Part shown: positions 2,630 through 62,568 of the stretch, piece by piece
Numbering within the stretch: the stretch's first letter is position 1
Layout of the letters: each line of letters starts with the position of its first letter
Source of the DNA: Eledone cirrhosa
Taxonomy: Eukaryota
NCBI GenBank assembly: GCA_964016885.1
Contig: OZ024745.1
Span: forward strand, 107,942,001 to 108,006,000
Length of the DNA stretch: 64,000 nucleotides
Direction: 5' to 3'
Notes under the pieces: model-generated
What the model saw: the letters and a program-made list of their open reading frames with translations, nothing else
Database searches by the model: none
What the model was told of the DNA's origin: nothing
Position numbers and translations under genes: made by a program

Positions 2630-3122
2630 AGTTAATAAAAACAATGAATAAAAACAAAGAAACAGTTCCTTATATTAAAAAATTCATCATTTTGCGATCG
2701 TTTCTAGGATATATATGTGTGTGTTGGTATGTATATCATATAAATCTATATAAAATTTTACAAACTATCAGAGGGAATATACATACCTACACATATATAT
2801 TATTATTTCTGAAGACAGCATATATATGTGTAGGTATGTATATTTCCTCTGATAGTTTGTAAAATTTTACATAGTTCTATATGATATACATACCAACACA
2901 CACATATATATCCTAGAAACGATCGTAAAATGATGAATTTTTTAATATAAGGAACTGTTTCTTTGTTTTTATTCATTATTTTTATTAATTTATCTTGACT
3001 CTGTTTTCCCGTGATTTTCATAGAAAAAATTTTTGAATATATCTTCTCTTTTCATGATATTTGGATTACATTGAGTTCTTCATATGTTTTGGACACTACC
3101 GTATAATTTGGTAGATTTATAC
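2630..3122 (+). mobile_element. Second, diverged copy of the foldback hammerhead element in (TA)n
   Basis: Inverted arms 2630-2800 and ~2820-2990; tail 2990-3122 is homologous to the reverse complement of 53486-53617. Confidence 0.8.
2803..2933 (+). ncRNA. Type I hammerhead with long stem II
   Basis: TTATTT-CTGAAGA-[~100-nt hairpin]-GAAA-CGATCG-TA-AAATGA; GUA site. Confidence 0.7.
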
Positions 3123-13387: not shown

Positions 13388-36526
<23,139 letters not shown>

Positions 36527-36849
36527 TGTTTTTGTTCACAGAATAATGACCAAGACGTTATCTGTACAAAAAAATAAGAAAAAAGGTAGAATGATAGAAT
36601 TTTTTAGAGGTTAAAAAAATTAGTTTAAGTTGTTTAAAAACATTCCTGTCATAACTATCTTGTCTTTTTGTATTAAGGCAAAGAATATCTAGGGACTACG
36701 TTATCCAAGGTGTATTTTGAATGTATTTTGAAAAGAATTTGTTTGTTTATTAAAACAGATCTAGAACTACACAGACTCCCTTATTAGCTCAATGTATGTA
36801 TGTATGTATGTATGTATGTATGTATGTATGTATGTATGTATCTATGTAT

Positions 36850-40804: not shown

Positions 40805-42962
40805 TCATCATCATCATCATCATCACCGTTTTACGTCCGTTCTTCCACGCTAGCATGGGTTAGACGGGTTGTCCTGTTGTGGGCAGTGTCTGGTCGGCTG
40901 ACCATGCCTTGCTCATACAGGAACTGATCTGGCTTGATTTCTACAGCTGGATGCCCTTCCTAACATCAACCTCATTTACAGTGAGTGCTGGGTGCTTTTT
41001 CGTGGCGCCTACACGTCCACTTTACAGTGTGGGCTGGGTGCTTTTTTGCCGTGGCACCTCCACGACCACCTTGCGGTGGGGGGGGGGGGGCATATTGATT
41101 ATATGCTTCAGCATGTACCCATGGGAGGTCGGGTACCCTGTATTACTGCGTGACGCCAGAGGTCACGGTCGTGTGTCATTGACTTTGAGAGGTGTAGTTG
41201 GGTTAGGTCGGCTTTTATCACCTCATCCCAAGTCATCTTGGGTCTCCCCACTCCGCGGTTTCCATCAACTTCTAGTGCTCTGCACCTTTTTATGCAGCTG
41301 TCATCCTTCATACGCATCACATGTCCATACCAGCGTAACCGCCTCTCCTGCACGCAGCATTTGATTCCTCTTATGCTCAGTCTCTCTCTCAATTCCTTTA
41401 TGCTTTGTCGTTCACGTATATTACTGTTACACATCCATCGGAGCATGCAGGCTTCGTTTCTCTCTAATCTACGTAAGTCTTCCACCTTCAGCGCCCAGGT
41501 CTCACTACCATGCAACATCGCTGTTCGGATACACGCATCATACAGTCTGCCTTTCATTCTGAGGGAGAAGCCTTTTGCAGCTAGCAGTGGTAGTAGTTCC
41601 CTAAACTTCTTCCATCCCGTTCTTACCCTAGTTATTGTACTTTCTGAGCACCCACCTCCGTTGCTAATTCGGTCACCTAGGTAGCAGAAGCTGTCTACTG
41701 TTTCTACAGGGCCCTCCCAGAGATTGGTGGTACTTGTTTCCTGTGGCTGTTTGCTTGCTGTTTCAGCACAGCTGCTGCATGTGAATCCTACATTCTTAAT
41801 TAAGCTTCCTGAGATCCCGCTACATCTCTTGTGTACCCATTGTTTGCATTTGGGGCAAAGAATGGAGTTCCTACCTACACCTTTCCTACATACTGAGCAA
41901 GGCCATTTCCCTGAGGGGATCTGGGTTCTGTTTTCTCGTCTACTTATAAGGACCTTAGTCTTTGTCATGTTGACTTTGAGGCCCTTTCTCTCTAGTCCCT
42001 GCTTCCAGGTTTGGAATTTATTCTCTAGTTCTACCATAGATTCAGCTATGAGTGCGAGGTCATCAGCATACAGGAGTTCCCATGGGCATCCGGTCTTAAA
42101 CTCCTCCGTTATTGCCTGCAGGACTATGATGAACAGGAGAGGGCTAAGAACAGAGCCCTGGTGGACCCCAACCTGTACGCTAAATTCCTCGCTATACTCA
42201 TTGCCAATCCTAACTTTGCTGACTGCTCCCCTATACATGGCTTGTACCGCTTTCACAAGCCATTCATCTACTCCTAGTTTTCTAAGAGCCCACCAGATTA
42301 CTGCACGTGGAACTCTGTCAAAGGCTTTCTCAAGGTCGACAAATGCCAAGTAGAGTGGCTTACTTTTAGCTAGGTACTTTTCCTGTAATTGCCTCACAAG
42401 GAAGAGGGCATCAGTGGTGCCTTTCCCTGGTACAAACCCAAATTGCATCTCGTCTATATTCACCCAGTCCCTAATCAGCTGTGCTATAACTCTTTCTGTT
42501 ACTTTCATGACCTGGTCCATCAACTTTATACCTCTATAGTTTCCTCTATCTAGTGCATCGCCTTTACCTTTGTAGCAGTTGACAATGATGCTACTGCACC
42601 AATCTTTTGGTATGGCCCCCTCTAGTATTACCTGGTTAACGATACGTGTGGTTATAGTGTGACCTACAGACCCAGATGCCTTCAGCATCTCGGCAGCTAT
42701 ACCCGATGGACCGGTTGCCTTCCCTATCTTCATATCTCTGATTGCCTTACTTACTACGCTGCCGCTGACTTGTACTGCTGGTCCCTCTATAGGGTCTACG
42801 TGGGGTAGGGTCTCTTCTTCCCATGCATTCTCCTCATTTAGTAATCTATCATAATGACTCTTCCATGCATCTTTCTTCTCAGCACTTGTGAGGGCAAGCT
42901 CACCTTTATCATTCCGGATACACTTCTCTCCAATGACATCACAACTATCTCTGACACACTGC
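40805..42962 (-). mobile_element. RTE/BovB-clade LINE, 5'-truncated; RT ORF 41108-42733
   Basis: Same RT motifs (YADD); 3' UTR and (GAT)n tail at ~40805-40826. Confidence 0.95.
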
Positions 42963-44419
42963 GATGTGTATGTCGATATCTGTGTCTATGTCTAAGGTTA
43001 TGTCCAGTAGTGAAGGTGCGTGGCTTTGTGGTTAGGATATTCAGCTTACAATCATAAGGTTGTGAGTTCGATTCCTGGAAGCGCATTGTGTCCTTGAGCA
43101 AGACACTTAATTTCACATTGCTCCAGTCTACTCAGCTGGCAAAAATGAGTTGTGCCTATAGTTCAAATGGCCAGCTTTGTCACATTTTGTGTCACACTGT
43201 GTCTCCCTGAGAACTACATTAATTGTATGCATGTCTGTGGAATGCACAGCATGTTAATTTCATGAGCAGGCTGTTCCATTGATCGGATCAACTGGAACAC
43301 TCGTCGTCGTAACCGACAGAGTGCCTCATGATGTTCTGTAACTTAGTAGTTCAACAAAAAGAGATTGATAAAATAAGTACCAGACTTAGAAAAATAAATA
43401 TTGAGGTTGATATAATTGACTAAATGCCCCAGCATGACTGCAGTTTAATGACTGAAACAAGTAGAAGAATAATACTATTAAAGAAAAGTAGTAAAACAAC
43501 AAGACACAGCTGAAACTAATTAGAGTTGCAGGGTAAAGAAGTTTGTTTCCCTGGTGGTTCCTGTTTCAATTACACTGTATAGTACCTATCAAAGTCTCAG
43601 GTTGACCAATGCATTTTGAGTGAAATTCAGTATATGGAATTTTCAGAAGCCTTTTATATGTTTGAATGTATGTGTGTGTATGTAATTCTGTATATCTATT
43701 GCCAATGAATACTGGGGAATGATGCATAAGTGAGAAAACTGAAAACCCAGTACTTTTGGAATAAAGTCCTTTATGCCATTTGTTCTACAGAATCACACAG
43801 AACTCCCTTTTCACTTACAGCATTGAAAATGCAATGAACCAGTGATTGGTATTTGCAATGGATTATGTCAGCGACCAGGATGCAAAGATGCACCAAAATA
43901 TTTCACATCTCATAAAATAAATAAAAAGTAAATATAAAATATTTTGTCCAGAATTATATTCCATACTGAAATGATCATTTTTTTCCCATATCATCGTCAT
44001 CATCATCATCAGTTAACATCCACTTTCACTGCTAGTAAGGGTTGGACAAGTCTTCATAGACCAAGTCAGTACTGAAAAGGGGCTACTGACATCCAAGACA
44101 GGCAAAGGGGTCTGCATACTGCTTACATATGGTCATGTTGAGTGCAGAAGAGTTGTTGTGCCTTTTGACACAAACTGAAGGATCTTCTCCCTTGTTTGAC
44201 AAGCTTTCTACAGCTGGATGCCCTTCCTAACACCAACCCCTTTACAGTGTGAACTGGGTAATTTTATTGTGTAGGTCACCAGTACTAGTCAGATTGTCAT
44301 GTTTTTTACACAACTAAAAGATCCTCCCAGCCCTTTGCTTGGCAAGCTTTGTATGACTTGATGCCTTTCCTATCACCAACCACATTACAGCATGTACAGT
44401 GTGTTTTACCATGTGGATC

Positions 44420-49301: not shown

Positions 49302-49404
49302 TCTTTTCATTCAAAGAATATAAAATTCCTGAATTTAAATCACAAACTAGCGCTATCAAAGACTGTTCCTGGGATGAGATATATATATAGTTTTAATATA
49401 GATG

Positions 49405-49455
49405 AGATTCTACAGGACTAGAACTGTTTCATTCTTTAGAAATCATCAGGAATCT
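49405..49455 (-). ncRNA. Type I hammerhead ribozyme, copy in the inverted pLTR
   Basis: Exact reverse complement of 55337-55387. Confidence 0.75.
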
Positions 49456-50051
49456 GGGTATCAAAAAATAAATATGGTATTTATAGGTCTCAACAAGTGG
49501 TAGGAGAGGGTGGGGAGTGGGATGGGTGTAGGTCATTGGTTGATAGAAAAGGGAATTCATTAAAAGCTAATTCTACAAAGCTATAGTTTATTTTTAATTT
49601 TTGTTTTTAGAGTAACAAAGGCAGACAGAATTCTATAAACAGGTTCCGGATGGCATACCATTCCTTGTCATTAAGTTTCTCTTAAGCTAACAGATGTTTA
49701 TAAGATCAGTGGGGGGGGGGGGGGGTCAGTCATGGTAGATAGAATTAAAAGAAAGGGAGATTCTTTAAAAGCTAAATTCATTAAGGTTCTACTAAGTGAC
49801 AAAGGTTTAGAGAATTCTGTAGACAGATTCAAAATACTGAGTGCATATCTTACAATTATCTTCAAACTTCTCTTAAACTAATCAACTATATGCCAAAAAT
49901 CAACAGACACATTCACAAAAAAACACACTCACTCACACACTCGCGCGCAACCATAAACACACATACACATATACACACATACACATATACACACATAAAA
50001 AAAACCCACACACATATATAAATATATTTATATACACATATATATACACAC

Positions 50052-50083
<32 letters not shown>

Positions 50084-50221
50084 ATATATATATACACACA
50101 CACACACACATATATATACACTCACACACATACATACATACAGATATACATGTGTATACATATACATATATATACACATACATATACATATATACACATA
50201 TATATATACATATATATACAC

Positions 50222-50252
<31 letters not shown>

Positions 50253-50331
50253 ATATATATATATATCCATATACACACATATATATATATATATATATAT
50301 ATTTTATATACACACCTGCACACACTTCAAG

Positions 50332-52236
50332 ATGATCAAGGATATTAAATTCCGTAGAGCCACCACACCATTCCAGGCCTACTTAAATGCCGAATTACGG
50401 AATATAAAAAAATCCCCAAATCTTTCTGTCTCCTCCGATAAAACCAAAAACGTTTATGAGGTAGACCCACAGACCTACAATAAGCTGGCAAAAAATACCA
50501 TCACGACCACCTACAAAAAGGTAATAGAAAGGGCACTGACTGAGACAAACGCGGCCGGAAAAGAAATCGCCAAGTCCCTTAAATTACACGACCGAACCGA
50601 ACCTTTAAGGGTAAAGACCCCGCACTTTACCCTGAAGGACCATAAGGGAAACTTCCTCAACAAACCATCAGTCAGACTTATCAACCCCACTCGTTCTGAC
50701 ATCGGCTCTATCAGTAAGAAGATCCTGGATAGAGTTCTACCATCATTGCGGGCAGCCTCACCACTTCCACTCTGGAGCAGAACATCTGAGGCAATATCAT
50801 GGTTCCAAAAATTACCCGACAAACACCACACTCGCTTCCTGCAACTCGACATAGAAAACTACTATGCCTCTATCTCGGAGCCCCTCCTGAAGGACGCAAT
50901 TAACTTTGCCAGGAATTTTACCACTATTACCGATGCTGAGCAAGTTGTTATCCTCCACGCTCGTAAGACCTTTCTATACCACGATGGATCTTACTGGATC
51001 AATAAGAAATCTCAGACCCCATTTGACGTTAGCATGGGGGCGAGTGACTCGGCTGAAATTAGCGACCTTGTGAGCCTGTACATCCTACATCACCTGAAGA
51101 ACCTCTTTACCGGCCTAACGGGAGGTTTATACCGAGACGACGGCCTCTTCGCCCTGCATAAGGTTAACCCCAGAACCACCGATGGGTTTCGGAAAAACTT
51201 TAGCTCTTTCTTCTCTAATCTAGGATTTAGTATAACTATAGAATCTAATTTGACTAGGGCCAACTTCTTAGATGTCACTCTCGACCTAGATACTTCCCTC
51301 TATTACCCGTACCACAAACCTAACGAGTCCCTTAAATATATTAATGTTAATTCAAACCACCCCCAAAACATCACTGATAACCTAGTAAAAAGCGTCTCTA
51401 TTAGAATATCTGGCCTCTCCGCCAACATAGATATTTTTAATGCATCTGCCTCCTACTACAATGACGCCCTCGCCCGTAGCGGATTTAAAGATAAGATAAC
51501 TTACCTAGAAACCACCGCAAGATTGCAGAGGAGGAATAGACATAGGCAGATTAGCTGGTACAACCCTCCCTTCAATAGAGAGGTATCTACTCCGATAGCT
51601 AGGATTTTCTTCACTTTGCTGAAATTACACTTCCCCATACAACATAGGTACCACACCATCTTTAATAAGAACACAATAAGACTGTCTTACTCCACCACAC
51701 CTAACCTAGCTAGGAATATAGCCAACCACAATTCTAAAAAATTAAATAAGCCAACCACCTCCGAACCCAATCCCCGGACTGGGGCTCTATGTAATTGCCT
51801 AAATAAGGAAGCATGCCCACTTGAAAACAAATGCCTCACAAATGATATCGTATACAAATGCGATGTCATCTCAGGCACCGAGGATTGCAAAAAAACTTAC
51901 ATCGGCATGATCTCCAACAACTTTAAGACCCGTTGGTATGCCCATACCCACTCCTTCAGAAGACCGGACAAATCAAATCAGACAACACTCGCCTCCTACG
52001 TTTGGGACCTCAAAAGGAACTCCACCCCCTTCACGCTTAAATGGAAAATACTCCAGAAAGCGCGCTCTTACAACGGAGGACACAAGGGCTGCGACCTTTG
52101 TATTTCAGAGAGCTACGAAATTTTATTCGCCAAGGGCCCGCTACTGAACAAACTCTCTGAACACTGCCCGAACTGCATTCACAAGAACTTTGCAACTTTC
52201 AAACACTTTAAGCCAGTGTTAAAGCCCGATGGCTAA
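50332..52236 (+). CDS. Penelope-like retroelement (Naiad-type) RT plus C-terminal GIY-YIG endonuclease, 5'-truncated but otherwise uninterrupted
   Basis: RT motifs [38 protein letters not shown] and NFLDVTLDL; linker WYNPPF; Cys cluster CNC..CP...C; GIY-YIG IVY..TYIG..FKTRW..H..E..LLNK. No in-frame stop in 634 aa. Confidence 0.9.
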
Positions 52237-52523
52237 AAACGACCTCCCCCTATTGGCCCCTATACCTCCATCCCACCCTACCCCCACCCCTCCTCAACCT
52301 GTAATACGGCCACTATGGTTATGTGAGTACCTCTTTCCTATCTACATTTTCTGCCTGTAGAGGTGTTTTTATGTGCCTGCGTATATGCGTATATTTATTG
52401 AGTACTTATTTATTTGTATGTGTATATATTTGTGTGTATGTGTGTATATGTATGTGTATGTATATGTATATATGTATGTGTGTATTTGTGTTTTATGTAT
52501 GTATGTGTATGTATATATGTATA

Positions 52524-52558
<35 letters not shown>

Positions 52559-52711
52559 GTGTATGTATGTGTATGTGTATGTTTGTATATATGTATATGT
52601 ATGTATATATATACATATATATATATATGTATATATTTGTATGTGTGTATGTGTGTGTGTGTGTGTATATATATATGTGTGTGTGTGCAGGTGTGTATAT
52701 ATATATGTATA

Positions 52712-52787
<76 letters not shown>

Positions 52788-53085
52788 GATATATATGTGC
52801 GTGAGAGAGAGTGTGTGTATATATATGTGTGTGTGTGTGTGTGTGTATGTGTGTATGCGTGTATTTATATGTATATATATGTGTGTATATATGCGTATAT
52901 ATGTTGGTATATATGTGTATATTTATGTATATGTCTGTGTATGTATGTGTATGTATGTATATATATGGAGAGATATGTATATATATATTTATATATATGC
53001 ATGTGTATGTGTGTGTGTGTGTGTATATATATGTGTATATGTGTGTGTGTGTATATATGTGTGTGTATATGTATGTATGTGTATG

Positions 53086-53136
<51 letters not shown>

Positions 53137-53268
53137 ATATGTATGTATGAATATATATTTGTATATGTATGTATGTGTGTATGTATGTGTGTGTGTGTGT
53201 GTATATGTATATATGCGTATATATATTGTGTGTGTGTGTATGTGTATATATATGTGTATATGTATATT

Positions 53269-53313
<45 letters not shown>

Positions 53314-53316
53314 GTG

Positions 53317-53349
<33 letters not shown>

Positions 53350-53430
53350 GTGTGTGTATATATGTGCATGTATTTGTGTATATGTATGTATGTGTGTGTG
53401 TGTGTATGTATATATATATATATATATGTA

Positions 53431-53486
<56 letters not shown>

Positions 53487-53684
53487 GATAAATCTACCAA
53501 GAGTTTACGGTAGTGTCCAATCCGTATGAAGAACTCAATGTATTCCGAATATCATGGAAAGAAGAGATGTAATGAAAAATCACTTTCGGTGAAAGATAAA
53601 CGGTATACAGAGTCAAGATAAAATATTAAACAAATAATGAATAAAACAATGAAACAGTTCCTTATATTAAACAAAAAAAGTTCA

Positions 53685-53831
53685 TTATTTAACGATCGTT
53701 TCTAGGATATATATGTGTTAGAATTGGCATGCATATTCAACAGATCTATGTACAAAATTATACAAAATTATACAAACTATCAAGATTAAATATACATACC
53801 AAACACACATATACGCCGTCTTCAGAAATAA
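53685..53831 (-). ncRNA. Mirror-image type I hammerhead with long stem II
   Basis: Reverse complement of 53833-53979. Confidence 0.7.
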
Positions 53832-53832
53832 A

Positions 53833-53979
53833 TTATTTCTGAAGACGGCGTATATGTGTGTTTGGTATGTATATTTAATCTTGATAGTTTGTATAATTTT
53901 GTATAATTTTGTACATAGATCTGTTGAATATGCATGCCAATTCTAACACATATATATCCTAGAAACGATCGTTAAATAA
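53833..53979 (+). ncRNA. Type I hammerhead with very long stem II
   Basis: TTATTT-CTGAAGA-[~116-nt hairpin]-GAAA-CGATCG-TT-AAATAA; GUU site. Confidence 0.7.
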
Positions 53980-54098
53980 TGAACTTTTTTTGTTTAATAT
54001 AAGGAACTGTTTCATTGTTTTATTCATTATTTGTTTAATATTTTATATATATATATATATATATATGAATATATGTATGAATGGTGTATCTCTCTCTC

Positions 54099-54151
<53 letters not shown>

Positions 54152-54178
54152 CGTGCTTTTTCCTTATATATGTGTATA

Positions 54179-54211
<33 letters not shown>

Positions 54212-54266
54212 GTATGTATATGTGTATGTGTGTGTATGTATATGTATATATTTGTTTATGTATATA

Positions 54267-54313
<47 letters not shown>

Positions 54314-54438
54314 TTGTGTGTATGTGTGTGTATATGTATATATATATATATGTGTGTATATATATGTGTGTATTTTATATATATATATGTATATATATAT
54401 AAAAATATATATATATATATATATATATGTGTGTATAT

Positions 54439-54488
<50 letters not shown>

Positions 54489-54494
54489 ATATGG

Positions 54495-54551
<57 letters not shown>

Positions 54552-54674
54552 GTGTATATATATATGTATATATATATGTGTATATATGTATATGTATGTG
54601 TATATATATATGTATATGTATACACATGTATATCTGTGTGTATGTATGTATGTGTGTGAGTGTATATATATGTG

Positions 54675-54719
<45 letters not shown>

Positions 54720-54728
54720 GGGTGTGTG

Positions 54729-54763
<35 letters not shown>

Positions 54764-55336
54764 GTGTGTGTATATATATGTGTATATAAATATATTTATA
54801 TATGTGTGTGGGTTTTTTTTATGTGTGTATATGTGTATGTGTGTTTATGGTTGCGCGCGAGTGTGTGAGTGAGTGTGTTTTTTTGTGAATGTGTCTGTTG
54901 ATTTTTGGCATATAGTTGATTAGTTTAAGAGAAGTTTGAAGATAATTGTAAGATATGCACTCAGTATTTTGAATCTGTCTACAGAATTCTCTAAACCTTT
55001 GTCACTTAGTAGAACCTTAATGAATTTAGCTTTTAAAGAATCTCCCTTTCCTTTAATTCTATCTACCATGACTGACCCCCCACTGATCTTATAGACATCT
55101 GTTAGCTTAAGAGAAACTTAATGACAAGGAATGGTATGCCATCCGGAACCTGTTTATAGAATTCTGTCTGCCTTTGTTACTCTAAAAACAAAAATTAAAA
55201 ATAAACTATAGCTTTGTAGAATTAGCTTTTAATGAATTCCCTTTTCTATCAACCAATGACCTACACCCATCTCACTCCCCACCCTCTCCTACCACTTGTA
55301 GAGACCTATAAATACCATATTTATTTTTTGATACCC

Positions 55337-55387
55337 AGATTCCTGATGATTTCTAAAGAATGAAACAGTTCTAGTCCTGTAGAATCT
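55337..55387 (+). ncRNA. Type I hammerhead ribozyme in the PLE pLTR
   Basis: AGATTC-CTGATGA-tTTCTaaAGAAt-GAAA-CAGttctagtcCTG-TA-GAATCT; stems I, II and III pair; GUA cleavage triplet; stem II closing pair is a U-U mismatch. Confidence 0.75.
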
Positions 55388-55639
55388 CATCTATATTAAA
55401 ACTTTTATACTCTGCAATGTATTGAGTACCTTACTTACTGTGGTTACCTCCGATTCAACCCGGAATAACGTATATATATATATATATATATATATACCAG
55501 TGGCGAAGGGTAACCTGGAAAGCAGGGCATGCAGTCCAATCACTATGGCGGAAAGTGGGGCTGGACAGCCTTACCTCCCCCCCCCCCCTCACAATTCCCT
55601 CTAAATGACCCTCCCGGTCAAAGCCGCATGTAGTGTTAT

Positions 55640-60072: not shown

Positions 60073-60120
60073 TGGACAATAAAATAATTGTATAAAGAGA
60101 AGTACATATATATATATATA

Positions 60121-62568
60121 TGTGGAACAGTAAGGTGGAGGGGTCAATTAAGGCCAAAAAGCAGGCTTGGAAAGTATGGCGGGATGGGGGAAGTAGAGAG
60201 GACTATCAAGTGGCCAGGAGGGAAGCTAGGAGACAAGTGTACTTAGCAAGAAGGGAAGCTGAGGAAAGAAAGTTCAAGCATGTTCTACAACGCGATGACC
60301 AAAAACGTGAGGTGTTCAGGATTGCTAGGCAATGCGTCAAGGAAAACCGTGATATTGTCGGGGAGAAGTGTGTACTAAACGACGATGGCACACTTGCCAT
60401 CACCGACGCTGATAAGAAGGTAGCTTGGAAGTGTCACTATGAAAGGCTTCTAAATGAGGAGAATAATTGGGAGAAAGGCAGTCTCCCCCATATCGACCCA
60501 ATAGAGGGACCAGCAGTGTTAGTCGAGGGGAGTATAATAAGTAAGGCAATCAAGGATATGAAGACTGGTAAGGCGGCTGGGCCTTCGGAAATAGTTGCTG
60601 AGATGCTGAAGGCATCTGGCACGGTGGGACACACCATGGTCACCCGCATAGTTAACCAAGTCGTACAAAACGGGGTTGTTCCGAAGGACTGGCATAGCAG
60701 CATCATCGTTAACTGTTATAAGGGTAAAGGAGACGCCCTAGATAGGAGTAACTATAGAGGCATTAAATTAATCGACCAGGTCATGAAGGTCACGGAAAGA
60801 GTAATAGCGCAACTAATCAGAGAGAGAATTGACCTAGATGAAATGCAGTTCGGGTTTGTGTCAGGCAAAAGTACCACAGACGCTCTTTTCATAGTACGAC
60901 AACTACAAGAGAAGTACCTAGCTAAAGGTAAACCCCTCTACTTAGCTTTTGTCGACTTGGAGAAAGCCTTCGACAGAGTCCCCCGCTCCATTATCTGGTG
61001 GGCTCTTAGAAAACTAGGCGTTGACGAATGGCTTGTGAGGGCTATACAAGCCATGTATAAAGAAACAGTCAGCAAGGTTAGAATTAACAACGAATATAGT
61101 GAAGAGTTTAGCGTAAAAGTCGGCGTCCATCAGGGCTCTGTTCTCAGTCCACTACTATTTATTATTGCCCTTCAGGCCATAACAGAGGAGTTCAAGACAG
61201 GCTGCCCATGGGAACTCCTATACGCAGACGACCTGACACTCATAGCGGAATCAATGGCCGAGCTAGAGAAGAAATTCCAAACATGGAAGCACGGCCTAGA
61301 GTCAAAAGGACTTAAAATTAACCTGGCTAAGACCAAAGTACTAGTTTGTAGGAAAGAAAACAAGGCGGCGGTCCCTTCTGGGAAATGGTCGTGCTCGGTG
61401 TGTAGGAAAGGCGTAGGTAGAAACTCCATTTTATGTCCTAAATGCAAAGTATGGGTGCATAAAAGATGTAGTGGGATCACAGGTAGGCTAACTAAGAACA
61501 TAGATTTTACATGTGGCCGGTGCTCTGGTGCAATAAGTAGCAGCAAGTGCCCACAAACTACTAGCTCTTTCAATTGCGCAGAGGGTTCTATAGAAATAGT
61601 GGACAGCTTCCGTTACCTGGGCGATAAAATCAGCAGTGGGGGAGGGTGCTCTGAAAGTACTGTAGCTAGAGTCAGAACTGGTTGGAAAAAGTTCAGAGAG
61701 CTTATACCACTATTAGCTGCTAAAGGGTTCTCACTAAAAATGAAAGGCAGGTTGTACGATGCCTGCATACGAACAGCAATGCTGCATGGCAGTGAGACCT
61801 GGGCATTGTGTGCAGAGGATATACGCAGACTAGAGAGGAACGAAGCTTGCATGCTCCGCTGGATGTGTAACAGTAATATACGTGAACGGCAAAGCATAAA
61901 CGAACTAAGGAATAAATTAGAGATAAGAGGGATCAGATGTTGTTTACTCGAGAGAAGGCTACGTTGGTATGGACACGTGATGCGCATGAAAGTCGATAGC
62001 TGTATAACAAAGTGCAGGGCAATAAAGATAGACGGTAGTCACGGAATAGGCAGACCTAGAAAAACCTGGGACGAGCTGATAAACTCCGACATCACACACT
62101 TACACCTCTCCAAGACAATGTCACTGGACCGAGACCTTTGGCGGTACTCAGTAACAGAGAAGACCCGCCTTACCTAAATATATAGTAAAACCTACTCCAG
62201 CCAGTAGGCATCTCTAACAAATACACCCCGTCCCACCACCCCCACCCGATCCACACCACCCCGTTCTATGTAAAGTTATGTTGGTGCCGCGCCATCGAGG
62301 CCGAAACAAATGAGATCGTGTAGGTGTCACGACAAAAAAACACACAGTCCACGCTGTAATGTGGCCGTGTAGGCAACACGGTAAAAACCTCCCAGACCCA
62401 CACTGTAAATGTGGTTGGTGTTAGGAAGGGCATCCAACTGTAGAAAACCTGCCAGACAGTCCTATGCGAGCAAGACAATCACTCTTGCCTCAAGTGGGAC
62501 TACCCCCGTCCAAACCCATGCAAGCGTGGAACACGGACGTTAAACGTTGATGATGATGATGATGATGA
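60121..62568 (+). mobile_element. RTE/BovB-clade LINE, 5'-truncated; RT ORF 60120-62177 open, 3' UTR ending in (GAT)n, inserted in (TA)n
   Basis: NYRGIKL, QFGF, FVDLEKAFD, GVHQGSVLSP, LLYADD, a Cys-rich PHD-like insert (CSVC..CPKC..HKRC..CGRC) and RLRWYGHV. Confidence 0.95.

What the first reader, a model, noticed from the sequence alone, without database searches (positions are those of the whole stretch)
53486..54046. Perfect palindromic element with back-to-back hammerheads and a ~116-nt stem II
Seen: a 429-bp perfect palindrome whose axis (53832) lies right at the 5' strand of stem I, so each strand encodes TTATTT-CTGAAGA-long hairpin-GAAA-CGATCG-TT-AAATAA reading outward. The stem II arms ttggtatgtatatttaa / ttgaatatgcatgccaa pair through several G-U wobbles, which points to RNA-level structure in the ribozyme orientation. 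The diverged copy at 2630-3122 keeps the core, the CGATCG stem III, a C-A stem II closure and the foldback layout. Inferred: a non-autonomous, (TA)n-targeting PLE-derived family whose hammerhead could be missed by searches that limit stem II length.
Basis: partly seen in the sequence, partly recalled or inferred. Interest (0 to 1): 0.8.

Follow-up and report, generated by a model that had tools for sequence, protein, structure and literature searches.

The report
Mirrored stub of a Hydra-type retroelement
This palindrome is a short two-armed insertion of a young, protein-coding jumping gene with thousands of copies in this animal genome; its hammerhead-type RNA motif has one arm over four times longer than in published relatives (cutting untested), and the copies suggest that the enzyme likely copies one RNA twice, once onto each target DNA strand.

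Summary
The 429-bp palindrome and the hammerhead with a 116-nt stem II are real. It is not a separate non-autonomous family. The unit is the end repeat (pLTR) of an autonomous Hydra-clade Penelope-like element, with over 100 intact 830-residue frames among 150 scored and 6,834 exact hits for one 33-mer. Insertions are two-armed: one arm ends at unit nt 215, the other at nt 349 (33 of 36 short, 20 of 21 long). Junctions vary (24 kinds in 36), but short arms stop at one base, +1, just above the ribozyme core, while ORF-linked repeats do not (0 of 30). Best model: one RNA is copied twice from two internal start sites, once onto each target strand; the axis likely marks the RNA's 5' end. Mirrored copies and one-sided tails are already described for these elements. 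The long stem II, the 134-bp tail and the short-versus-long split are the new parts. Stem II shows one-sided G-U changes but no significant covariation; cleavage and RNA are untested. The scan noted similar long-armed and mirrored elements before, on other DNA.

The parts
53484..54046 (.). Whole insertion: two pLTR arms joined 5' to 5' (unit nt 2-349 on the minus strand, nt 1-215 on the plus strand), between (TA)n tracts
53618..54046 (.). Perfect 429-bp palindrome, centre base A at 53832 (= unit nt +1)
53484..53617 (-). One-sided 'tail', unit nt 216-349 (134 bp): the stretch between the two fixed outer ends
53832..53980 (+). Type I hammerhead, plus arm: stem I 53832-53838 with 53974-53980, CUGAAGA 53839-53845, stem II region 53846-53961 (116 nt), GAAA 53962-53965, palindromic stem III 53966-53971, predicted cut after 53973 (GUU)
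   Evidence: cleavage untested
53684..53831 (-). Mirror hammerhead, minus arm: CUGAAGA 53825-53819, stem II region 53818-53703, GAAA 53702-53699, predicted cut between 53691 and 53690; lacks the first base of stem I
53440..53483 (.). (TA)n target tract, left flank
54047..54066 (.). (TA)n target tract, right flank
2630..3122 (+). Older subfamily copy (79% identical): forward arm from 2802 with one hammerhead (stem II region 100 nt, triplet GUA) and tail; inverted arm about 2630-2799 lacks the CUGAAGA core
49389..55470 (+). Host element in whose microsatellite-rich 3' UTR the finding is nested: a second Hydra-type PLE family, also two-armed (short end 49389, long end about 55470, tail about 67 bp)
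50254..52236 (+). 5'-truncated RT-endonuclease frame of the host element (DKT, YRDD, CxCx5C); 45% and 41% identical to the finding's family in two blocks
55337..55387 (+). Hammerhead of the host element with an ordinary 12-nt stem II region; serves as a control

Best explanation
The palindrome is a short two-armed insertion of a young, autonomous Hydra-clade Penelope-like retroelement, likely made when the element's enzyme nicked a (TA)n tract on both strands and copied one RNA twice from two internal start sites (unit nt 349 and 215), both copies likely running to the RNA's 5' end and being joined there. Shown: the family has an intact RT-endonuclease frame; the two outer ends are fixed; junctions are re-made at +1; each arm can hold sequence that the other lacks; the two arms of one insertion are more alike than arms of different insertions. 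Inferred: two priming events on one RNA (about 85%); +1 is the capped transcription start (about 65%); long ORF-bearing copies come from a template without that end, either a hammerhead-made circle or a read-through of tandem copies (circle about 40%); the long-armed hammerhead still cuts, as a dimer through its CGAUCG palindrome or with protein help (about 60%).
For: Autonomy: 830-residue frame about 500 nt behind +1; about 108 of 150 scored places have the full 830-residue frame (my count); model pLDDT 85.8 with telomerase RT chains in the top 7 fold matches; Hydra motifs RWR, DKT, CxCx5C, CxxC, CxH (against PMC8557442 section 11). Two ends: 33 of 36 short palindromes (the other 3 have the 349 end and an unresolved second end); 20 of 21 long insertions with both ends seen among 40 stretches, three of them predicted in the notebook before fetching. 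Two templating events: L040, L137, L173, L176 each have sequence in one arm that the other lacks. One RNA: arms within an insertion differ by median 0 against 5 between insertions (25 young-subfamily cases); private variants shared by both arms, for example L063, L177, L149; of 28 distinct loci picked for a +1 start, 23 have a partner arm and none of these runs into the upstream UTR, while in the 21 long insertions both outer repeats carry upstream UTR. Hot spot: 677 genome hits for a junction at +1 against 19, 51 and 45 for the same pattern design at nt 140, 143 and 151; 17 of 29 terminal arms taken in chromosome order start at +1 to +3, against 0 of 30 ORF-linked repeats from 22 places. An extra G at -1 in 16 of 71 arms against 8% G at -2 to -6; such a G is linked to cap copying for L1 (PMC9341517, passages). 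In vitro, a Poseidon PLE protein cuts and extends both strands and starts at two internal RNA sites that define the tail (PMC11167929, parts 1-2 of 4).
Against: No RNA data: no RNA 5' end, circle or cleavage product was seen. The G at -1 is not significant against genome-wide G (about 18%, p=0.20), and some of these G can come from the partner arm. No excess of junctions at the predicted cut site (51 vs 45 at a control position). One of 21 long insertions ends near nt 146 instead of 215 (L045). Two haplotype groups are almost only short copies (7 of 8 and 4 of 4), in a sample biased towards short copies, so copying of short transcripts in trans is not excluded. The monomer's best fold pairs core bases and lies 4.5 kcal/mol (young) and 3.1 (old) below the hammerhead fold. 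A C3G core mutant is in both arms of L063, so short insertions do not seem to need cleavage. Stem II has only 1 of 50 pairs with a change on both sides and a covariation score no better than shuffles (123 of 500).
Confidence: 0.8

Rival explanations
1. A non-autonomous family: the short palindrome, or transcripts from short copies, is itself the amplifying unit and borrows the enzyme in trans.
For: Short forms are very common (17 of 29 terminal arms). Two haplotype groups are nearly all short copies. Animal retrozymes are reported as non-autonomous pLTR derivatives (10.64898/2026.07.22.740005, part 1 of 5).
Against: 24 different junctions in 36 copies; the window's own haplotype group holds 32 UTR- or ORF-linked arms beside 8 short ones; no short tandem units of the retrozyme type were seen in the loci; a transcript through the palindrome is predicted to be one long hairpin; terminal copies lack nt 350 onward, which completes a predicted small hairpin around the 349 site (weak fold).
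Confidence: 0.12
2. The architecture is as described, but +1 is not a transcription start: it is a strong stop for the RT or the end left by RNA trimming at stem I.
For: +1 lies in the 5' strand of stem I in both families; the G excess at -1 depends on the background chosen.
Against: cDNAs that have crossed the ORF pass the same sequence without stopping (0 of 30), which a fixed structural stop would not allow; genomic stem I pairing continues 2-3 bp above +1 (read), so +1 is not a helix end; +1 is the A of a CA dinucleotide in both families.
Confidence: 0.2
3. The hammerhead no longer cuts; the long AU-rich hairpin is kept for another reason (protein binding, or it is simply tolerated), and its G-U pairs may come from A-to-I editing of the RNA.
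For: Off-state fold is predicted as more stable; no cut-site footprint; core plus stem III unchanged at 0 of 18 sites against 41 of 303 in the other stems, loops and tail is only suggestive (one exemplar per subfamily); most lineage changes in paired stem II positions are A to G (6 of 19 events, the largest class).
Against: All core bases, an allowed cut triplet (GUU or GUA) and stem I are kept across subfamilies about 80% alike; C-A or U-U type closure and U at the cut site are usual in Hydra hammerheads (U-U and U seen in File S2); a rough estimate puts the double hammerhead level with the off state (-89.4 vs -88.8); PLE hammerheads are known to need dimers or protein (PMC4209133, PMC11167929).
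Confidence: 0.3
4. DNA-level fold-back of one cDNA, or an assembly artefact.
For: The window copy has perfectly identical arms.
Against: Arms often hold sequence that the partner lacks; older copies have diverged arms (median 4 differences); junctions carry unique inserts; the end rule holds in two subfamilies and on many chromosomes. Long reads were not checked.
Confidence: 0.03

Closest known systems
Hydra clade of C-terminal EN+ Penelope-like elements (Craig et al. 2021, PMC8557442), e.g. Hydra-1_Obim
   Same: Single RT-endonuclease frame with RW(K/R), DKT and CxCx5C motifs; (TA)n targets; type I hammerhead in the pLTR; partial tandems with an inverted 5'-truncated copy
   Different: Stem II region 116 nt against about 12-26 nt in the 26 Hydra rows of File S2 (my count); tail 134 bp against the 30-40 bp stated; unit about 6.4 kb with a 3.5-kb microsatellite-rich 3' UTR against under 3 kb; RWR instead of RWK; a different family from Hydra-1_Obim (compared by eye only)
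PAc, Poseidon element of Anolis (Frangieh et al. 2024, PMC11167929)
   Same: Two internal RT start sites that define the tail; both target strands cut and extended; AT-rich target; hammerhead upstream of the start sites
   Different: Shown in vitro there, inferred from copies here; start sites here lie before the ORF and 134 nt apart; in the parts read that paper does not describe a fixed 5' stop or the short-versus-long split
Minimal and palindromic-stem-III type I hammerheads of animal PLEs (Cervera and De la Pena 2014, PMC4209133)
   Same: Short palindromic stem III suited to dimer cleavage; extra base at the foot of stem II; longer-than-usual stem II
   Different: Stem II of 7-8 bp there, about 40 predicted pairs here; the conserved G10.1-C11.1 pair is replaced by C-A followed by G-U or A-U
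Animal non-LTR retrozymes (PMC7229834; 10.64898/2026.07.22.740005)
   Same: Type I hammerhead, PLE origin
   Different: Retrozymes are short head-to-tail tandem units without protein; here copies are head-to-head stubs of a coding element

Membership tests
Penelope-like element, EN+ | Telomerase-like RT | tested here: met
   YRDD motif; top 7 fold matches are telomerase chains, best E 1.6e-9, low TM-scores about 0.3 for the whole chain; no Pfam match at cut-off
Penelope-like element, EN+ | C-terminal GIY-YIG endonuclease | tested here: met
   VY...YIG on two strands, then R, E, N residues; a 39% identical homologue has a weak GIY-YIG match, E 0.012, below cut-off; met by motif, not by a curated profile
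Penelope-like element, EN+ | pLTR formed by partial tandems, with inverted 5'-truncated copies and a one-sided tail | tested here: met
Hydra clade | RWK motif, DKT instead of DKG | tested here: met
   RWR (conservative variant) and DKT
Hydra clade | CxCx5C linker; CxxC and CxH around the conserved E and N; no CCHH motif | tested here: met
   CNCRNKANC, CRLC and CNH; absence of CCHH judged by eye
Hydra clade | Insertion into (TA)n | tested here: met
Hydra clade | Grouping with published Hydra proteins in a tree | not testable with these tools
   Published proteins were seen only as supplement text and compared by eye; no tree was built
Hydra clade | Short unit (generally under 3 kb) | tested here: not met
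   About 6.4 kb between repeats; a general description in the paper, not a diagnostic
Type I hammerhead ribozyme | CUGANGA and GAAA core, A15.1-U16.1 pair, NUH cut site, stem I | tested here: met
Type I hammerhead ribozyme | Stem II supported by covariation | tested here: inconclusive
   95% of cells paired, 1 of 50 pairs changed on both sides, score not above shuffles; G-U alleles at 10 pairs against A-C at 1 (alleles in 2 or more of 29 rows, p=0.006, rows related)
Type I hammerhead ribozyme | Self-cleavage | not testable with these tools
   No assay; no genomic footprint at the cut site
Non-LTR retrozyme / non-autonomous family | Short tandem units without a coding master; inherited structure | tested here: not met
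   Coding masters present; junctions vary

The most novel reading that the evidence does not exclude
The copies record two RNA templates and so give the PLE hammerhead a job. The enzyme can start only at two sites just in front of the ORF. On the capped linear transcript it soon reaches the 5' end and leaves a mirrored stub; only after the hammerheads have cut and the unit has been closed into a circle can it run through the 3' UTR and ORF and around again, giving full-length and tandem copies. A ribozyme with a 116-nt stem II that folds 'off' as a monomer would gate this switch.
Probability: 0.35. Interest if true: 0.8.

Novelty: new variant of a known kind. Interest (0 to 1): 0.5.

Why it matters
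How PLEs make their tandem and inverted insertions, and what their hammerheads do, are named as open questions in PMC8557442 (passages). This family is young and abundant, and its copies give sharp predictions: RT starts at nt 215 and 349, a capped RNA end at +1, and a template without that end for long copies. It also shows that Rfam's hammerhead models miss a motif with thousands of copies, so ribozyme counts from short-stem descriptors are probably too low. The palindrome itself is an ordinary product of such elements.

Tried and rejected
Cut-site footprint: 51 hits for junctions at nt 143 looked promising (L118 has both arms starting there), but a control at nt 151 gave 45; 12 of the 51 are explained by stem I microhomology and about 11 look like point variants; rejected as evidence of cleavage. 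Covariation: not significant. Rfam: only microRNA-like chance matches below cut-off over the hairpin. Pfam and PDB sequence searches: nothing at cut-off. Sequencing runs: no RNA holder listed among 6 runs, which says nothing about expression; no reads were laid, so neither expression nor long-read support was examined. Sequence look-up in earlier scan findings gave nothing. Literature: the phrase 'long stem II' with hammerhead gave 0 papers; searches listed no paper title or abstract start on such a long-armed PLE hammerhead or on a fixed 5' stop; subscription papers and Repbase entries are not covered. Naiad clade rejected (endonuclease is C-terminal here). In one search five rows are insertions of another short repeat at +1 (L052, L068, L074 twice, L076) and were left in the count; without them G is 16 of 66. 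Rows for the 29-sequence alignment were hand-picked from 93 distinct arms.

Full report
Numbering: unit nt +1 is the A at the start of stem I (window 53832 on the plus arm). 'Young subfamily' is the window copy's type, 'old subfamily' the type at 2630-3122.

Observation. The palindrome is exact: 214-bp arms around one A, 53618-54046. The minus arm goes on for 134 bp to 53484, and (TA)n lies on both sides. Each arm reads outward as a type I hammerhead with 116 nt between CUGAAGA and GAAA. The sense arm folds far better than shuffles (z -6.1) and than its antisense. Rfam finds no hammerhead in the window. The copy at 2630-3122 is 79% identical and has a complete hammerhead in its forward arm only.

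What it belongs to. The genome is 3.0 Gb; its organism was not determined. A search with the 347-bp arm scored 40 of 977 candidates, all near-identical, and only a minority had the mirror arm. Most of the 30 fetched loci share upstream sequence, and in three the unit runs on into a reading frame. Longer stretches show pLTR, an 830-residue stop-to-stop frame, about 3.5 kb of microsatellite-rich 3' UTR and the next pLTR, often in tandem arrays. About 108 of 150 scored places keep the full frame (my count). The protein has YRDD, RWR, DKT, CxCx5C, a VY-YIG endonuclease, CxxC and CxH, the features listed for the Hydra clade (PMC8557442 section 11), and it matches the published Hydra-1_Obim motif by motif when read by eye (supplement passages). 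Its model is confident (mean pLDDT 85.8) and the best fold matches are telomerase RTs. One exact 33-mer occurs 6,834 times. So the finding is a stub of a young, autonomous element.

Two fixed outer ends. Among 36 distinct short palindromes in the fetched loci, 33 have one arm ending at nt 215 and the other at nt 349; 3 have the 349 end and an unresolved partner. Among 40 long stretches, 21 insertions had both ends in view: 20 follow the rule and L045 ends near nt 146. Three of these ends were written down as tests before the fetch and came out at 215. An inverted 5'-truncated copy and a 30-40 bp one-sided tail are described for PLEs (PMC8557442, passages). In vitro, a Poseidon protein cuts and extends both target strands and starts at two internal RNA sites whose spacing is the tail (PMC11167929, parts 1-2 of 4). 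Here the tail is 134 bp.

Two copying events on one RNA (inferred). Fold-back on DNA fails where each arm holds sequence that the other lacks (L040; L137, L173, L176). Arms of one insertion differ by a median of 0 against 5 between insertions in 25 young cases, and 4 against 9 in 11 old ones. Private variants are shared by both arms. Short and long arms did not mix in my samples: 0 of 23 partners of +1-starting arms enter the upstream UTR (28 distinct loci, 5 without a partner), and both outer repeats carry upstream UTR in all 21 long insertions. The long set was chosen from top hits, so it is not a random sample.

The axis. The junction is not inherited: 24 spacers in 36 copies, some with re-copied bits of nt +1 to +13. 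But 5' ends pile up at +1: 677 hits against 19, 51 and 45 for the same pattern design at other positions (the patterns are not identical in degeneracy). In a chromosome-order sample of 30 arms, 17 of the 29 terminal ones start at +1 to +3, 8 run into the UTR and 4 are shorter. Genome-wide 2,557 of 8,285 arms that reach +1 lack the genomic C at -1, an overcount because part of the old subfamily has another base there. In contrast, 0 of 30 ORF-linked repeats (22 independent places) start at +1 (also 0 of 10 resolved ends). G stands at -1 in 16 of 71 arms: high against neighbouring junction bases (8%, p=2e-4), not against genome-wide G (p=0.20). An untemplated G is linked to cap copying for L1 (PMC9341517, passages). 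I read +1 as the capped start of the RNA; short copies would come from its 5' part and long copies from a template without this end. A circle made by the hammerheads was proposed for PLE tandems (PMC4209133, parts 1-2 of 4); read-through of tandem arrays fits equally.

Built-in control. The finding is nested in the 3' UTR of a second Hydra-type element (49389 to about 55470). Its hammerhead has a 12-nt stem II region and 9,206 exact hits. It also forms back-to-back pairs, and 15 of 30 sampled arms match the reference for only 4-6 nt above the core (a few of these are upstream variants rather than truncations). The layout therefore does not depend on the long stem.

The ribozyme. In File S2 of PMC8557442 the 26 Hydra rows have about 12-26 nt in stem II plus loop, often a U-U closure and often U at the cut site, so only the length is unusual here. 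Across 29 hand-picked arms 95% of cells pair, but only 1 of 50 pairs changes on both sides and the covariation score is not above shuffles. G-U alleles occur at 10 pairs and A-C at 1, which favours folding of the sense RNA; selection and A-to-I editing (recalled as common in some invertebrates, not checked) both fit. Against this, the old subfamily's antisense folds better than its sense. The monomer is predicted to prefer a fold that pairs core bases, by 3-4.5 kcal/mol; a rough dimer estimate removes the gap. No footprint of cleavage was found in the copies. Animal PLE hammerheads are reported to need dimers or protein (PMC4209133; PMC11167929; PMC7229834, passages).

Verdict. A new family of a known clade, showing a known layout, with an unusually long stem II and tail: new variant of a known kind. 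Its value lies in how cleanly the copies constrain the copying mechanism. Earlier scan notes describe similar long-armed Hydra hammerheads in this genome and mirrored two-armed insertions in other genomes; I formed my reading before seeing them, and they are not independent support. Also read: 10.64898/2026.07.22.740005 part 1 of 5 (its supplements are closed) and PMC10085705 passages (no bearing). Only parts 1-2 of 59 and search hits of the PMC8557442 supplement were seen.

Noticed in passing
window 26498-26620 (+): A further type I hammerhead candidate unrelated in sequence, with an 85-nt stem II region, CUGAAGA core and GUU triplet; other families in the loci have 12-36 nt, so stem II length forms a series in this genome.
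   Followed up: partly
window 49389-55470: Second Hydra-type PLE with short-stem hammerhead that hosts the finding; two-armed, tail about 67 bp, 9,206 exact hits of a 32-mer.
   Followed up: yes
window about 19305-19590: Another imperfect palindrome; it resembles the part downstream of the core of a short-stem hammerhead family seen in L071, L145 and L095 and seems to begin near that family's cut site.
   Followed up: no
L146:1673-1700; L132; L062; L025: Junction inserts that repeat the first 11-13 nt of the unit two or three times, as if the RT re-primed at the RNA's 5' end.
   Followed up: partly
L052, L068, L074, L076: A short SINE-like repeat has inserted at +1 of old-subfamily repeats several times, with duplications of different length in L074 and L076.
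   Followed up: no
L063:1361-1638: Both arms carry a C-to-G change at core position C3, so a probably dead ribozyme was copied into a short insertion.
   Followed up: partly
L033:2809-2874 (unit nt 300-365): The 349 end falls in the loop of a weak predicted hairpin whose 3' arm exists only in ORF-linked repeats.
   Followed up: partly
window 41108-42985 (-), 60096-62177 (+), 34749-35228 (-): Long frames of a LINE-type reverse transcriptase (YADD), three related copies.
   Followed up: no
window 36074-36535 (-): Exon-like frame resembling the start of a very-long-chain acyl-CoA synthetase or fatty acid transport protein (resemblance recalled, not searched).
   Followed up: no
G000:C4:191710706-191733780 (L031-L033): Two identical 12-kb neighbours with the same junction, either a recent duplication or an assembly repeat.
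   Followed up: no
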